64,000 nt of DNA from Camelus dromedarius (lineage: Eukaryota), in contig NC_087436.1 in NCBI RefSeq assembly GCF_036321535.1, positions 26,724,001 to 26,788,000 of the forward strand. Reading direction: 5' to 3'. Positions 24,880 to 55,129 of the stretch are shown in pieces. The position numbers were made by a program, and so were the translations under genes. The stretch's first letter is position 1. Each line of letters starts with the position of its first letter. Under the pieces are notes generated by a model. The model was not told the origin of the DNA. It saw only the letters and a list, made by a program, of their open reading frames with translations, and searched no databases.

Positions 24880-27455
24880 GGTTTTACTCCCTAACCACTC
24901 AGATTAGTTTCTGTAGAAACTCACATTTCTATAGTCATATTATTCATTATTTTTCAAAAGACTATTTTATATCATTTTCTTTCTTCTCACACCTCTCCCG
25001 TCTCTCTCAATGCTGGTGATTTTGATTCTTATTTCACTGAGAAATTGGGAGAAATAAAATAGACCTACTCATCTTTCCATTAATAATCTATCAATCTATC
25101 TATAGTCAATATCCTGATTTCCCATGTGTTGTAATCAAATTACAAAAATGCTTTTAATCTAAAAACAAACAAAAACCTCCTTGATTCTCTGAGCCCCCAC
25201 ATAACTGGTTGTTACCACATTCATATTTGCTTGTTCTTTTTCAACACAGTCAAATACTAGTTCTGACTGAGTAGTTTACTACTACTAATAAATTATTATC
25301 ACTGATGTTACCAAACCTTCACTGGCCAACCCCAGTGATCAACTTTAACCAACATCGTACTTGAAGTTAGGAAGTATGTTATACAATACACCACTCCTTC
25401 TTTCATGAGAACTTTTCCATGTGGATTCCCAAACAAAACCCTCTGCTGGATTTCTTTCTTCTGTGACTCCTACTCAGTTTAACTAGTGACTCCTACTCCT
25501 ACTCCCAGAGTCTATGTGCTCACTCTTTGATCTTTTCTTCTCTCTTTGGAGTTGACGACACACTTTCCCATGGATTTGAATTCATTTGATAGATTTTCAA
25601 CTCTCAAATGTGTATCTTGAGTTCATAATTTGATATTTCCTCTTCTAAACACCTTCATTTAAATATCAATTTGACATGTAAAACTTAACATAGTCAAAAT
25701 GGATTTCCTGGCTCAAAAACCTGCTCCCCCAATATTCCCTGTATCGGTGGATGATACCAAAACCCCAGGACTTATTCTTGTTCTCTCACTCCCTGAAATC
25801 TTACATGCAGTCTATCAACTGCCAGGTTGCTCAGCCACCTATAACCTGGCTGCTTACTGTCTGTAAGCTTAACCATAAGCTTTTAAATATGACTTTTAAT
25901 TACTTACACTGCTGCTAGTCTAAACCATCATCATCTTTTCCAAATCACTTAAAAGCCTATTAACAAAGTGATCTCTATGATTTCACCAGATTTATTACCT
26001 ATACTCTACACAGAATCCAAAGCAGTCTTCTAGAAACATAAACCAAATCTTATCTCCATCCTGCTCAAAACTCTCCAGTAGCTTCCAATCACAGCTTAAA
26101 ACCCAAATTCTCTAGTTTATAAGGCTCTACTTAATATGACCCCAGCCTAGGTTTCTGGCCCTGTTGCCTCCCTTTTGTTTCCCTAGTATTCTGATTCATT
26201 CTGGCCTTGCTACCCTTGAAACTGCTAAGTCAAGCTTCTCTGCTTGCGAGGCCATTGCCTTCCCTGGCTTGGTCAGCTTCTCTCTTGAAGTGTATTTCTT
26301 TCCCCTAAGGTCATTTCTGTCCACACGCCTTTACAATTATTTTTCCATAAGTAATATCTTTCCTTATTTCTCTCCAAATAAAGGATAAACTTCCTACTAA
26401 TGTTAGTAGACATGAGTAGACTCAGTCAGACATGAGTGGTGAGGACAGCATCCAGGGAGGACCCAAAAGAGACTCAGTCCCACCTCTTGCGTCTTAACAC
26501 CTAACTAATAACCTACCACAGAGAATAGCCTAAAAACCACAGCGGGCAAGTCCCCCGGCAGAGCATGAGCGAAGCCTAGGCCCCCTTGTCCTCAGATGAC
26601 CCTACCACGCAGAAACACGCATCATCCGTGACATAGTCTGCCCATACATTAATTTCATTATAACAAAGCAAATTCTGGGACACACATGCACAGTTCCGGC
26701 ACCTGTTACATAATTCTCAACTGTCAATCAAGAGGTGACACAGTCTTCATGCAAATCCAAGACAAAAAGTTAAGCTTCTCTGCTTGCAGGGCCATTGCCT
26801 TCCTTGGCTTGGTCAGCTTCTCTCTTGAAGTGTATTTCGTTCCTAAATAAACTCTGCTTATGCTTTGCTACTGTTGTGGCTCCTCAATTCTTTGTTGCGC
26901 CAACAACAAAAACCGAGCCCAGGGGCGGCCCTGCCGTGGTCTGCGGTAACACTAGGACATACAAGGCCCACGGTGATCTGACCCCTATTTCCTCTCAGAT
27001 CGTATTTCTTTCTTCCGTTTATCTAGCTCACTGTCCTCCAGCCATAGTCACCTCCTTTTTGTTGTTGTTGTGACATGGCAGGTACGTTCCCACTCTGAGG
27101 TTTTGCTTATTCCTCTTCCCTCTGACACTCCTGACTGATCACTCCCACTGCTCCTCCAAACCTTTTCTTAAATGTCACCTTCTCAATGAGATGCTTTGTA
27201 TCTAACTCTTTTCAAGTTGCAGTCTCTCCCTAGAACTCACCACACTCATAAATCTGGTTTTCCCAGCACGATCAGTTTAGCACCTCATCTATTAATGTAT
27301 TATGTTTATCGCTCTCTGTCTGACATTCTACACCAGAATGTGAGCTTCACAAGGGCAAGGATGATTTTGTCTGTTTTGTTCAATGGTGTATCACCAAGGG
27401 CTGGAACACAGCTTGACAACATTGAATGGACTACTGATTAAATAATGAACAAATG
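24880..27455 (+). mobile_element. L2 fragments, interrupted by a solo LTR
   Basis: L2 motifs: 'cttatttcactgagaaa', 'aaacttaacatagtcaaaatgg', 'ctgctcaaaactctccagtagcttcc', 'aatgtcaccttctcaatgag', 'cagaatgtgagcttcacaagggcagg'. Confidence 0.75.
26401..26951 (+). mobile_element. Relatively young solo LTR (probably ERV1, lineage-specific)
   Basis: TGTTA...TAACA inverted termini, AATAAA at 26846-26851, retained CpGs, and a near-perfect 4-bp TSD (ctaa/ctag). It splits an L2. Confidence 0.85.
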
Positions 27456-40104: not shown

Positions 40105-40181
40105 TTAGGGCATCCAAGAAATAATGCCACCTGCCCTGGCTGTTTAGGCATCCAAGAAATAATGCCACCTGCCCTGGCTGT
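40105..40181. repeat. Tandem duplication, 38-bp period, 2 copies
   Basis: ggcatccaagaaataatgccacctgccctggctgt occurs at 40109 and 40147. Confidence 0.95.
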
Positions 40182-41832: not shown

Positions 41833-42755
41833 CTTTTTTTCTGAGTTGAGTGATTTTATTTATTTATTTATTTATATTGAAGTATAGTCAGTTTACATGT
41901 TGTATCAATTTCTGGTGTACAGCATAATGTTTCAGTCATACATATACATATATTCCTTTTAAAATTCTTTTTCATTATAGGTTACTGTAGGATATTGAAT
42001 ATAGTTGCCTGTGCTATACAGCAGAAACTTTTGTTTATCTATTTTATATATAGTAGTTAGTATCTGCAAATCTTGAACTCCTATTTTATCTCTTTCTACC
42101 CCTCTTCCCCCTGGTTAACTATGAGTTTGTTTTCTATGTCTGTGAGTCTGTTTCTGTTTTGTAAATAAGTTCATTTGTATCATTTTTTTAGATTCCACAT
42201 GTAAGTGGTGCCATATGGTATTTTTCTTTCTCTTTCTAGCTTACTTCACTTAGAATGATGATCTCCAAGTCCATCCATGTTGCGGCAAATGGCATTATTT
42301 TATTCTTTAAGGCTGAGTAGTATTTCATTGTATAAATATACCACAGCTTCTTTATCCAATCATCTGTCAATGAACATTTAGGTTGTTTCCATGTCTTGGC
42401 TATTGTAAATATTGCTGCTATGAACATTGGGGTGCATTATCTTTTTGAATTAGAGTTCCCTCTGGATATATGCTCAGGAGTGAGATTGCTGAATCATATG
42501 ATAAGTCTATTTTTAGTTTTTTGAGGAATCTTTATACTGTTTTCCATAATGACTACACCAAACATGCATTTCTGCCAACAATGTAGAAGGGTTCTCTTTT
42601 CTCCATACCCTGTCCAGCATTCATTGTTTGCGGACTTTTGAATGATACCCATTCTGACTTGTATGAGGTGATACCTCATTGTAGTTTTGATTTGCATTTC
42701 TCTGATAATTAGCAATACTGAACATTTTTTCTGTGCCTATTGGGCCATTTGTATA
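41833..42755 (-). mobile_element. Young 5'-truncated L1 (ORF2 C-terminus plus 3' UTR) with a 14-bp TSD
   Basis: ORFs [17 protein letters not shown]... and MFIAAIFTIAKTWKQPKC...EIIILSEVS. TSD tcacatctactatt at 41819-41832 and 42756-42769. Confidence 0.95.
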
Positions 42756-50987: not shown

Positions 50988-51300
50988 TTTTTTAATGGAG
51001 TTAATTTTTTAGAGCAGTTTTAGGTTCACAGCAAAACTGGGTGCAAAGTACAGAAAGTTTCCATATACCATCTGACTGCATACATGCACAGTCTCCCTGA
51101 TTCTCAGCATCTCCCAGGAGAGTAGTACTTTTGTTACAATCAATGAATCTACCTTGACACATTATTATCAATCCATGCTGATAGTTTACATTAGGGTTCA
51201 CTTTTGATGATGCATATTCTATGGGTTTTGATGAATGTATAATGACACATATTCATTATTTTAGTGTTATACACAATAGTTTCACTACCCTAAAAATCTT
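50988..51300 (-). mobile_element. L1MC/MD-type 3' UTR end nested in the opposite orientation
   Basis: 'ttttagagcagttttaggttcacagcaaaactg...tacattagggttcact...ctatgggttttga'. Confidence 0.8.
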
Positions 51301-51962
51301 CTTGTGATCCATCTAACTTATTTTTGCCAAAAATGCAAAAGTAATTCAACTCAAGAAGAAGAGCCTTTTAAATAAATGGTACTGGAGCAATTGATATCCA
51401 CACACAAATAAAAGAAATTTGACTTGAACTTCACACCAAAAAAAAAAAAATTAATTAAAATGAATTACAGAATTAAATGTAAGATAAAAACTTTAAAACT
51501 TTCACAAGAAAATAAAGGAGAAAATCTTTGAGAACTAAGGCTTGGAGAACAGTTCTTAGATTTGATACCAAAAGCAAGAGCCTTAAGAAAAAAATCAATA
51601 CATTGGACTTTATTAAAAACAAAACAAAACACAAGTTTGTTCTGCAAAATAACCTGTTAAGAGAGGCTACAGACAGAGAGAAAACATATATATAAAACAC
51701 ATATCTGACAAGGGACTCATATTTTGAATATATGAAGAACTTTCTCAGAATTCCCAAGTAAAAATCAAACAAACAAAAAATCCAAGTCAAAAAATGGGCA
51801 AAAACATGAAAAGACATTTCACTGAGGAGGATATGTAGATGGCAAATAAGCACATGAAAAAATCCTTCACATCACTATCCATTCAGGAAATGCAAGTCAA
51901 AACCACAGGAAGATATCCTATATAGCTATTAGAAGAGATTACACAAACAGAAAAAACAGTAG

Positions 51963-53042
51963 TGGGAAACCATGAACAGGGGGGGACAACCTATGGGAGT
52001 GGGAGAGAATTTTTGCAAGCGACGTCACCCACAGGAGATTAGTTTCCAGGATATGCGGACAGCTCATACAGCTCAATGTCAAGGAAGGGGACAGCCTGGT
52101 CAAGGAATGTGCGGAGGACCTAGGTGGATATTTCTCCAGGGAGGACATGCAGATGACCAACAGGCATGTGAGGGGTGCTCAACATTGCTAATTATTGGAA
52201 AGCTTCAAATCAAAACTACAATGAGGTATCACCTCACACCTGTCAGGAGGGCAATCATCAAAATGCTTGCAAGTAGTGAATACTGGAGAGGGTGTGAAGA
52301 GGGGAAAACCCTCCTACATTGCTGGTGGGAATGTGGATTGGTGCAGCCACTGTGGAGAGCAGTATAGAGGTTCCTTGGAGAACTAGAAATGGAGTTGTCA
52401 TATGATCCAGCAATCCCACTCCTGGGCATGTATCTTGATAAAACTCTAATCTAAGGGGATATATGCACCCAGTGTTCATGGCAGTGGTGTTTGCAATGGC
52501 CAAGACATGAAGCAACCTGGGTGTCCATCGACAGATGAATGGATGAAGAAGATGTGGTGTGTAAATGCAATGGAACATTGCTCAGCCCTGAAAAAGGATG
52601 GAATAATGCCATTTGTGGCAACACAGATGGACCTAGAGATTATGATGCTAAATGAAATGGATCAGACAAAGACAAGTATCATATGATGTCACTTACATGT
52701 GGAATATACAAAAGTGATAGAAATGAACTTGTTTGCAAAACAGAAATAGACTCACAGACATAGAAGCAAACTTATGGTTGCCAAAGGGGAAAGGGGGGTG
52801 TGGGGAGGTGGAATAATTTGGAATTTGGAATTAACAGATACACACTCCCACATGTAAAGTGGATAGACAACAGGGATCTACTGTGTAGCACAGGGAACTG
52901 TGTTCAGTACCTTGTGGTAACCTGTGGTGGAGGAAAACCTGAGAAGGAATACATACATGTGTGCACATATGTGCACTTTGCTGTACAACTGAAACACTGT
53001 AAGTCAACTATACTTCAATTTTAAAAAATGGGGAGAAAAAAA
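51963..53042 (+). mobile_element. 5'-truncated young-family L1 (ORF2 C-terminus, 3' UTR, A-tail) with dense A-to-G hypermutation
   Basis: Collinear with the L1s at 41833-42755, 33893-34367 and 62742-63257 but with A replaced by G throughout. Probable TSD aaaaaacagtag (51951-51962) / aaagaacagtgg (53040-53051). Confidence 0.92.
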
Positions 53043-55129
53043 GAACAGTGGCAATACTAAATACTGGCGAGAATGTGGAGAAACTGGATCTCTCAGTGCT
53101 GGGCATGTGCAATGATACAGATATTCTGGAAAATATTGTGTAATTTCTTTAAAAAAGTAAAACATGTACAACATGGCGTGGCCATCACTTTGGTGGGGGG
53201 GCATCTATTCTAGAAAAATGAAGTCATGTCTGCACAAAAACTTGTAAATAATTGTTCATATAAGTTTTATTTGTAATAGCCCCAAAATGGAAGCAATCAA
53301 AATGTCCTACTATAGGCAAACTTAAACAAACTGGTACGTTCATCCCATCAGAAACTACTTAGCAGTAATGAAGGCTGAAGTATTGATACACATAACAACT
53401 TGAATGGATGAGTACAAAAAACCAATCACAAAATTTCAAATGCTGTATGATTCCATCCTTGTAACATTTTTCAAATGATAAAATTATAGAGATGGAGAAC
53501 AAATCAGTCATCGCCAGAATTTAGGGATAGTGGGGTAAGAGGGCAGAGGTGATCATGATGTGTAGCATGAGAGAGATCTTTGTGAGGATGAAATAGTACT
53601 GCATCTTGATTGCAGTGGTGATAACATGAATATACCCATTTGATAAAATGACTGGAACTATTCATACACATTGTACCAATGCCAACTTCCTGGTTTAGAT
53701 ATTGCACTACACAGCGATGTAACCATTGGAAGAAACTGAGTGAAGAGTACATGGGGTCTCTGAAACTTCCTATATATCTATAATTATTTTAAAACAAACA
53801 AACAAAATTTAAAATTTAAAAGTACTTAATTTTAATATTTTATTTAAACCAATGTCCAAAATATTATTTCCCTGTATAATCAAAATAATAAGTATGAATG
53901 AAGAAAACTATTTCTCACATTATTTTTAAGTCTATTTTTTATCTACTCTGTTCCATTAATCCATGTGTGGATCCTCTCACTAATACCACACTATCTTGAT
54001 TATTGTAAATTTATTGTATGTCTTAGATCAGGTAGTGGTAGGTTTTTCAACTACTGGTGGACCTATTAATTCTGCAATCAGAAAACTTCAAAGCACTCAA
54101 GGAGATTTATTATATCTACACAATTGTACTCTGTACCAAAGACTTCAAGTTCACTTTGTTTTCTATTTTCTATCTCTGATTTCATCTAGCCTAATTGTCC
54201 AAAATAGCTCATTACAAGTTCTGTTATGAGACTAAATGACACATTTACATATTACAATAGTGAACTGCAAAAAAGTTGATAAAATTATAACATGAAGATA
54301 TGCACCAAATTTTAAAACAAACTATTTCTGATGATCAAACTTGTAAGCAAAGATTAATGTGAAAAAAAGGAAAGTTAAAGGAAACTCCAAAGCTATATTA
54401 TCTTCCCTCTTGTGAGTTACATTTAAAGAAATGTGGGCAATGTGGCCATATGTACCCGGGAAAACCACTGTGATACTGCTCAGTAGAAACTGAAATTTAG
54501 TACCATATATGTAAATCTTGAATTCTATCCAAGAGAGTGTAATCACTAAAGTCCCAAAAGACTTCAATTAGACCTATAATATACTCCCAAGAAGAGAATT
54601 AAAATAGATTTTCAACTTCTTTTGAATTTAATTTTACAAAATACATCAAATAGAAGTTACGAGTAAATTGATCTGACATAAAAATTTTACGTGAGTACAA
54701 AAATAATAGTAAGAAATGATATTTTGTTTTCTTTACTGGCTTTCTCCCTTAATTTTTCAACTTCCAATCTCTGGAGACCTGGGTTAGTGATGGAATAAGA
54801 ATGCTCAGCACATAGGTATGGGAATCAATAATTATATAATTAGAACTGATTTATATCAACTATTATATAACAGCATTGTTAAAATTATAGTACCCTTTAA
54901 ATATGTTTGCCAACTTCTTTGACATTCTTTCTTTCAAAGAAGTAGCAAACTGTAGGCTCAGTAATTCCAACATGGTATACCACATCTCTGAGTAAAAACA
55001 AACAAATATGATACTGAGCCAACTGATCTTGGAATGTTAAACTTTTGGGTATCAAAGAAACTCCATATGATGTTTTGAAGAATATTTAAATACTTATTCT
55101 ATAATCTTATTACTTCATTTATTTATAGA

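What the first reader, a model, noticed from the sequence alone, without database searches (positions are those of the whole stretch)
52040..52600. Neighbour context of the A>G changes follows the ADAR preference, and the changes are patchy
Seen: the changed A's mostly follow T or A (tAg>tGg, tAc>tGc, tAAAt>tGGGt). A's directly after G tend to survive (gcAgaAgacc>gcGgaGgacc; gatAaagaagatg>gatGaagaagatg). The A-rich stretch 52205-52240 (caaatcaaaactacaatgaggtatcacctcacacc) is untouched. Established: ADARs disfavour a 5' G and favour UAG-like contexts, and hyper-editing clusters along duplexed segments. Inference: edited and unedited patches may map paired and unpaired parts of the ancestral duplex.
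Basis: partly seen in the sequence, partly recalled or inferred. Interest (0 to 1): 0.7.

Follow-up and report, generated by a model that had tools for sequence, protein, structure and literature searches.

The report
ADAR-edited L1 RNA fossilised in genome
This is an old, truncated copy of the L1 jumping gene in which about a quarter of the A's have become G's on one strand only, with the sequence preference of the RNA-editing enzyme ADAR, so it most likely preserves an edited L1 RNA that was copied back into the inherited genome.

Summary
The stretch lies in a 5'-truncated L1 (end of ORF2 plus 3' UTR, about 51961-53039) inserted into an older L1 of a mammal. Against 39 sister copies, 108 of 427 A's read G (25%; sisters 4.1%, maximum 7.1%); all other changes are ordinary. 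The 5' neighbour rule holds: T 39/91, A 56/165, C 7/87, G 6/72 (p 9e-10), repeated on 29 further copies. It matches ADAR's published U>A>C>G. The 3'-G (UAG) preference is only a weak trend. Patchiness is modest: the runs test fails (p 0.08-0.10), but 100-nt heterogeneity and a 4-5 segment fit are significant (p 0.003-0.013), with a cold patch at 52182-52263. No self-fold explains the patches, so 'patches map the duplex' is unshown. The excess stops at the insertion's ends, and the edited form is held by many public runs listed or guessed as DNA. Best reading (0.85): an L1 RNA was hyper-edited in a long duplex with antisense L1 RNA, then retrotransposed in the germ line. Three of 82 other copies carry sense-strand A>G clusters, against 0 of 81 for T>C: possibly an unsurveyed class.

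The parts
51961..53039 (+). 5'-truncated L1 insertion (about 1.08 kb) carrying the A>G excess from end to end
   Evidence: 73-79% identity to 39 copies elsewhere in the genome; 108/427 A>G; junctions
51997..52671 (+). Remnant of the L1 ORF2p C-terminal region, broken by frameshifts and stops
   Evidence: Read with X at stops, two frames match human ORF2p residues 1035-1103, 1091-1194 (E 2e-35) and 1208-1262; Pfam found nothing in three frames
52690..53039 (+). L1 3' UTR and A-rich tail; whether the G's in the tail are edits cannot be called, since sister tails vary; the start is approximate
   Evidence: Alignments
51951..51960 (+). Left copy of the probable target-site duplication
   Evidence: 9 of 10 bases match 53040-53049; decayed and A-rich, so probable only
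53040..53049 (+). Right copy of the probable target-site duplication
51989..52173 (+). Most heavily edited segment (27 of 49 A's after T or A); dense edits continue to the 5' junction
52182..52263 (+).
   Evidence: 5-segment fit, p 0.007 uncorrected; 0/15
52269..52590 (+). Edited segment (35 of 72 favoured A's)
52591..52858 (+). Weakly edited segment (11 of 66 favoured A's)
52859..52933 (+). Heavily edited 3' UTR segment (15 of 24 favoured A's)
   Evidence: 4-segment fit
51300..51950 (+). Older host L1, left part, same orientation, no A>G excess (control)
   Evidence: A>G 3/172 in 51300-51780 and 2/18 in 51870-51959
53050..53800 (+). Older host L1, right part, no A>G excess (control); joins the left part across the insertion
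   Evidence: A>G 18/248 vs T>C 11/183; of 29 host sisters 7 hit both flanks and 4 of these are collinear within 8 bases

Best explanation
An L1 transcript was paired over at least 1 kb with a complementary RNA, most likely an antisense transcript of another L1 copy, in trans or inside one long transcript. ADAR deaminated roughly a fifth of its adenosines (about 90 above background) to inosine, mainly those after U or A. [quoted passage not shown] The reverse transcriptase read inosine as G, stopped after about 1.08 kb, and the copy integrated into an older L1 and became inherited. It has since aged like its sisters. Shown: the excess, its strand, context and limits, and the L1 identity. Supported by word sharing with public runs, not by laid reads: that it is in DNA. 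Inferred: that the enzyme was ADAR, that editing came before insertion, and what the partner strand was.
For: One substitution class on one strand, six times the sisters' mean, with the others normal; non-A divergence 10.5% vs sisters 9.5+/-1.3%. 5' context T>A>>C~G, replicated, as published for ADAR (PMC3113232; 5'G depletion in hyper-edited RNA, PMC4365171). At majority CA sites 4 of the 7 changed ones now read TG, as expected if the edits made CpG that later decayed; this suggests old edits and a true 5'C rate above the 5'G rate (small numbers). The excess starts at the 5' junction and is absent from the host L1 on both sides. The inverted L1 at 41940-42743 shows no mirror T>C excess beyond its generally higher divergence (18/200, with C>T 21/138). 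Fourteen runs listed or guessed as DNA, from 8 studies and 2 organism codes, hold 0.90-0.94 of the words of a 2.2-kb stretch of which the element is half. The route is shown in cells: 3 of 235 new pseudogene insertions carried ADAR-type clusters (PMC11702581, passages). Three of 82 other copies have sense A>G clusters past Bonferroni, 0 of 81 have T>C clusters.
Against: No partner strand was found and the sequence does not fold on itself. The 3'G preference is not significant overall. A cell study saw no editing in more than 2.5 kb of expressed L1 RNA, though it allowed for a rare edited fraction (PMC5224506). No reads were laid on the locus, the DNA labels of the runs are guesses, and one run may be the assembly's source. 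The reference is a majority of copies chosen for likeness to the edited copy, not the true source element.
Confidence: 0.85

Rival explanations
1. Error burst of the L1 reverse transcriptase (dCTP put opposite A under skewed nucleotide pools), with no deaminase involved.
For: It would also be confined to the insertion and to one strand. A-to-G hypermutation during retroviral reverse transcription is recalled from the literature, not checked here.
Against: Slippage-type misinsertion should favour A's whose next template base (the 5' neighbour) is G (inference from the dislocation model, recalled); these are the least changed, 6/72. A pure 25% single-class error with ADAR's 5' order has no obvious polymerase basis.
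Confidence: 0.05
2. Editing in place after insertion: ADAR acting on the DNA strand of an RNA:DNA hybrid, or RNA-templated repair from an edited host transcript in which this L1 paired with the inverted L1 9.4 kb away.
For: An inverted related L1 lies at 41940-42743. RNA runs hold 0.82-0.84 of the stretch's words, so the locus may be transcribed. ADAR action on DNA/RNA hybrids is in print (title seen in a reference list).
Against: The neighbour has no mirror excess and does not cover 51961-52155, which holds most of the most edited segment. The host L1 flanks are clean. Editing begins at the junction.
Confidence: 0.04
3. The G's are not a one-off event: a G-rich L1 subfamily, gene conversion from another copy, or GC-biased conversion.
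For: L102 shares 11 of the element's 16 G's in the part they overlap (7.3 expected with triplets held, p 0.023).
Against: No close relative: best hits are 78% over the element and 76% over the most edited 111 nt, and a 28-base edited word occurs once in 2.3 Gb at up to 3 mismatches. Only 3 of 108 sites have G in 20% or more of sisters. L102 is not among the element's 8 nearest on non-A columns, and outside the segment used to pick it the sharing is 5 of 7 (p 0.05-0.15). GC-biased conversion would raise T>C, A>C and T>G too; they are 15/231, 5/427 and 1/231.
Confidence: 0.03
4. Transcription-coupled strand asymmetry or a local mutation hot zone.
For: A>G over T>C asymmetry in transcribed DNA is established knowledge (recalled).
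Against: It would not stop at the insertion's ends; five other L1 pieces in the window give 5-14% A>G, the high value in a copy with 19-25% at G and C as well.
Confidence: 0.02
5. Assembly artefact, such as edited RNA reads leaking into the consensus.
Against: Runs from 8 studies hold 0.90-0.94 of sampled 31-letter words; an unedited element would break most words over half the stretch. CpG decay on top of the edits points to age.
Confidence: 0.01

Closest known systems
ADAR-edited inverted Alus fixed in new L1-made processed pseudogenes (PMC11702581, preprint; passages read, its Fig. S8 not seen)
   Same: Edited RNA copied into DNA by the L1 machinery, leaving clustered single-class changes.
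   Different: There: cultured cells, mRNA 3' UTRs, edits limited to intramolecular inverted Alus. Here: an old inherited insertion, the L1 body itself, edits over the whole 1.08 kb, no self-fold.
A-to-G hyperedited avian retroviruses, HTLV-2 and STLV-3 (as summarised in PMC12925331, passages; the 1994 and 1995 originals were not read)
   Same: ADAR-type A>G in a retroelement RNA, fixed by reverse transcription; up to about 50% of A's.
   Different: Exogenous LTR viruses, U3 or inverted-repeat regions, not germ-line fossils of a non-LTR element.
APOBEC G-to-A 'DNA editing' of LTR retrotransposons in vertebrate genomes (PMC4866542, passages)
   Same: A single hypermutated copy, strand-biased, context-dependent, fixed in the genome, which distorts age estimates.
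   Different: Opposite change (G>A), acts on cDNA, LTR elements; that screen kept only G-to-A-dominated alignments, so A>G cases were filtered out.
Hyper-edited RNA in transcriptomes (PMC4365171, passages)
   Same: Dense A>G clusters in repeats, 5'G depletion.
   Different: RNA only; there 3'G is enriched, here only as a trend; this one is in the genome.
Earlier scan finding e1-7810917 (ADAR-edited transposon hairpin inside a LINE, another genome; unchecked AI note)
   Same: Sense-strand A>G fossil written back by a LINE.
   Different: There the substrate is an embedded inverted repeat; here there is no hairpin and the L1 sequence itself is edited.

Membership tests
L1 (LINE-1) retrotransposon copy | Homology to ORF2p | tested here: met
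   E 2e-35 and 2e-17 to ORF2p chains
L1 (LINE-1) retrotransposon copy | Dispersed family, 3' UTR, A-rich tail, 5' truncation | tested here: met
L1 (LINE-1) retrotransposon copy | Target-site duplication | tested here: inconclusive
   9/10 match in A-rich DNA; host flanks collinear in 4 of the 7 sisters that hit both
ADAR hyper-editing product | A>G only, on the RNA strand | tested here: met
   108/427 vs T>C 15/231, p 6e-10
ADAR hyper-editing product | 5' neighbour preference U>A>C>G | tested here: met
   C and G not separable in the raw counts
ADAR hyper-editing product | 3' G preference | tested here: inconclusive
   p 0.43 overall; p 0.058 and 0.027 among favoured sites
ADAR hyper-editing product | Level below the 50-60% ceiling for long duplexes | tested here: met
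   25% overall, 37% of A's after T/A; ceiling from PMC3113232
ADAR hyper-editing product | A double-stranded substrate | tested here: inconclusive
   No self-fold; a partner in trans or outside the copied part cannot be seen
ADAR hyper-editing product | Dependence on ADAR activity | not testable with these tools
   Needs knock-out or in vitro editing
APOBEC DNA-edited retroelement | G>A on the sense strand | tested here: not met
   G>A 18/175, ordinary
GC-biased gene conversion tract | All weak-to-strong changes raised on both strands | tested here: not met
   T>C, A>C and T>G ordinary

The most novel reading that the evidence does not exclude
Mammalian genomes hold an overlooked class of ADAR fossils: on the order of a percent of old L1 copies came from RNAs caught in sense-antisense duplexes in the germ line, and the ends of each A>G tract record how far the duplex reached (whole element here, a 200-nt 3' UTR patch in L102). 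Editing would then be a real, heritable mutagen of L1, the A>G counterpart of APOBEC editing of endogenous retroviruses, and a dated record of germ-line ADAR activity and of its sequence preference in extinct ancestors.
Probability: 0.45. Interest if true: 0.78.

Novelty: new variant of a known kind. Interest (0 to 1): 0.62.

Why it matters
Cell work concluded that ADAR1 restrains L1 without editing its RNA (PMC5224506). An inherited L1 copy with about 90 ADAR-type edits, and a few more in a small sample, shows that edited L1 RNA can be mobilised and can reach the germ line. It makes three questions countable from genomes alone: how often L1 RNA passes through a duplex before insertion, whether tract ends mark the partner, and whether ADAR's preference changed across lineages. 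It also warns that such copies look twice as old as they are. The mechanism itself is known from retroviruses and from new insertions in cultured cells, and this copy has no sign of function, so the value is in the class rather than the locus.

Tried and rejected
Pfam scan of three frames: 0 families; the identity came from solved ORF2p chains. Self-folding as the source of the duplex or of the patches: no link. Conservation among sisters as a stand-in for how well a paralogous partner would pair: no link. The nearby inverted L1 as an in-place partner: no mirror excess. Runs test, longest gap and longest unedited run: not significant over all A's. Effects at -2 and +2: none (p 1.0, 0.34), although PMC3113232 reports a -2 effect for hADAR1. 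A daughter or parent copy: none among the best 40 scored in each of six DNA searches with parts of the element (only 40 candidates are scored, out of up to 19,992) or by a genome-wide 28-base pattern. L106 as a further edited copy: rejected, as its T>C is raised too (16/161) and it keeps CpG. L079: real A>G excess (43/412 outside the selecting segment) but weak context (p 0.16) and T>C 17/205, so doubtful. Edits in the A-rich tail: cannot be called. Small-share runs (0.05-0.39) were not used. Searches listed 156 further places, of which only the 14 top-ranked or recurring ones were fetched, so the 82 copies are a biased sample and give no frequency. Literature: eight searches found no report of inherited ADAR-hyperedited L1 copies. 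The library lacks most subscription papers; the 2011 retrotransposon DNA-editing paper and the 1995 avian retrovirus paper were not held, and no supplements were read, so earlier notice cannot be excluded.

Full report
Setting. The window is G000:C1:26724001-26788000 of a 2.3-Gb mammalian assembly. Earlier notes of this scan call the genome camelid (e1-7791955; not tested here). The finding lies in a purine-rich island (GC 0.44, GC skew 0.23 in 52001-53000) that aligns with several L1 3' ends in the window. Read with X at stops, two frames match human L1 ORF2p residues 1035-1103, 1091-1194 and 1208-1262. The match to sister copies starts near 51961 and ends in an A-rich tail near 53039. A 10-base probable target-site duplication (9/10) flanks it, and the flanks join into one older L1 in 4 of the 7 host sisters that hit both sides (29 tried). 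So this is a 1.08-kb, 5'-truncated L1 inserted into an older L1.

The excess. I aligned 39 copies from elsewhere in the genome and called the majority base where at least 10 copies covered a column and 60% agreed (999 columns). The element has G at 108 of 427 majority-A sites (25.3%); sisters, each left out in turn, have 4.1+/-1.2%, at most 7.1%. T>C (15/231), G>A (18/175), C>T (10/166) and transversions (28/999) are ordinary, and divergence at non-A columns is 10.5% against 9.5+/-1.3%. About 90 changes are therefore extra. A second set of 29 copies gave 112/422 and extended the calls to the 5' junction. The copies were picked for likeness to the edited element, which can only lower the contrast.

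Context. By the majority base on the 5' side: T 39/91, A 56/165, C 7/87, G 6/72 (p 8.9e-10); after taking off background, 0.37, 0.30, 0.06, 0.05. Ordinary A>G drift in the sisters has a much flatter and different profile (p 0.007). PMC3113232 (parts 1-2 of 6 read) gives hADAR1 5' U>A>C>G and 3' G>C~A>U, with the 5' base most influential. PMC4365171 (passages) reports G depleted upstream and enriched downstream of hyper-edited sites. The 5' rule is met. The 3' rule is not significant overall (p 0.67) and shows only as a trend among favoured sites (p 0.058 and 0.027). No -2 effect was seen. Of the 7 changes after C, 4 now read TG, which fits new CpG decaying after the event and suggests that some C-context edits have reverted unseen (inference from small numbers).

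Patchiness. The proposed runs test does not reach significance (p 0.10 in range, 0.08 overall; 0.04 for favoured sites or with triplets held). The untouched stretch is real (0/15) but no longer than the longest run chance gives. At a coarser scale the element is uneven: 100-nt chi2 p 0.012 (0.003 for favoured sites), and residuals correlate at 1 nt and at 26-60 nt. Segment fits give 27/49, 2/20, 35/72, 11/66, 20/49 (five segments, p 0.007), while two- and three-segment fits give p 0.053. With this many tests the evidence is moderate. Whether patches map pairing could be tested only for self-folding, and failed: pairing probability is no higher at edited sites and no window folds better than shuffles. 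Local conservation among sisters does not predict editing either.

Limits of the tract and reality of the DNA. The host L1, same strand, shows 18/248 A>G to the right and 3/172 and 2/18 to the left. The inverted L1 at 41940-42743 has no mirror excess and does not reach the most edited 5' part. Fourteen of 24 listed runs, from 8 studies and 2 organism codes, hold 0.90-0.94 of the sampled words of 51400-53600; their DNA labels are guesses and one may be the assembly's source. A 28-base heavily edited word occurs once in the genome, and no close relative turned up, so the event left a single copy as far as these searches reach.

Other copies. Among 82 other copies (39 + 29 + 14; biased towards sharing G's with this one), a scan for clusters against a context-matched null gave 3 past Bonferroni for sense A>G (L007, L102, L079; 7 at p<0.01) and 0 of 81 for T>C (2 at p<0.01). 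L102 is the clearest: 25/87 in a 200-nt 3' UTR patch with 5' T 10/21, A 14/35, C 1/17, G 0/13, against 6/146 and 2/55 on either side (clustering p 2e-4). L007 has a denser, shorter patch (T 6/17, A 6/25, C 3/15, G 1/13). L079 is diffuse with weak context and is doubtful. L102 shares more G's with this element than triplets predict (11 of 16, p 0.023), but it was picked for such sharing, it is not a near relative on non-A columns, and 15 of its 26 G's there are its own. Independent editing of preferred sites is the simpler reading; shared ancestry is not fully excluded.

Mechanism. Best reading (0.85): ADAR edited an L1 RNA held in a duplex of 1 kb or more, and the L1 reverse transcriptase wrote inosine as G into a germ-line insertion. 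With no self-fold, the partner was probably antisense RNA from another L1, in trans or in a part of the transcript that was not copied (inference). Editing of the cDNA strand in the RNA:DNA hybrid would have given T>C on the sense strand, which is not seen. Rivals are a polymerase error burst (0.05), editing in place (0.04), a G-rich subfamily or conversion (0.03), transcription-linked drift (0.02) and artefact (0.01). That patches map pairing I put at about 0.3.

Comparison. The route is known in pieces: clustered ADAR-type changes in 3 of 235 new pseudogene insertions, limited to inverted Alus (PMC11702581, passages; its supplementary figure not seen), and A-to-G hyperedited avian retroviruses and HTLV-2 (PMC12925331, passages). 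An A>G-rich part of an endogenous mouse provirus was considered and set aside for lacking the ADAR context (PMC12548423, passages). The large genome screen for edited retroelements covered LTR elements and kept only G-to-A (PMC4866542, passages). PMC5224506 (passages and Discussion) found no editing in expressed L1 RNA but allowed for a rare fraction. Eight searches found no report of inherited ADAR-edited L1 copies, within a library that lacks most subscription papers. An unchecked note of this scan describes a related fossil in another genome, there in an embedded hairpin (e1-7810917).

Verdict. The context claim is confirmed, the patchiness is modest, and the pairing map is unshown. It works like ADAR hyper-editing and meets the strand and 5' tests, while substrate and enzyme are not shown. 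New variant of a known kind; interest 0.62.

Noticed in passing
L102 (G000:C26:13383560-13384500, minus strand), oriented positions 606-803: Second L1 copy with a sharply bounded 200-nt A>G patch in the 3' UTR and a clean ADAR-type 5' context; just upstream sits a short piece that looks like more 5' L1 sequence (recalled likeness, not tested).
   Followed up: partly
L007 (G000:C3:107196885-107198547), about 1075-1223: Dense A>G patch in the same part of the L1 3' UTR (15 of 60 A's).
   Followed up: partly
L079 (G000:C14:20278311-20281514), about 1058-2375: L1 copy with diffuse A>G excess (59/525) but weak context; what looks like a clear target-site duplication flanks it.
   Followed up: partly
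L106 (G000:C25:373400-374400): L1 copy with both A>G and T>C raised and many CpG kept; two more hits on the same contig at 411 kb and 750 kb suggest duplicated, GC-biased sequence near a chromosome end.
   Followed up: partly
window 52844-52910 equivalent, in the element, L102, L007 and L108: The same AT-rich part of the L1 3' UTR is A>G-rich in several copies; it may be the part most often caught in a duplex, or simply rich in favoured sites.
   Followed up: partly
window 51961-52173: The 5' truncation falls at the end of the most heavily edited segment; inosine-rich template might have helped stop the reverse transcriptase (speculation).
   Followed up: no
window 26227-26303 and 26767-26843: Direct repeat of 77 nt at 94% identity, 540 nt apart, in a C-rich, GC-raised stretch.
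   Followed up: no
window 40109-40181: Exact tandem duplication of a 38-nt unit (1.9 copies).
   Followed up: no
window 51400-53600: Two RNA runs hold 0.82-0.84 of the stretch's words, so the locus may lie in a transcribed intron, or the runs hold DNA.
   Followed up: no
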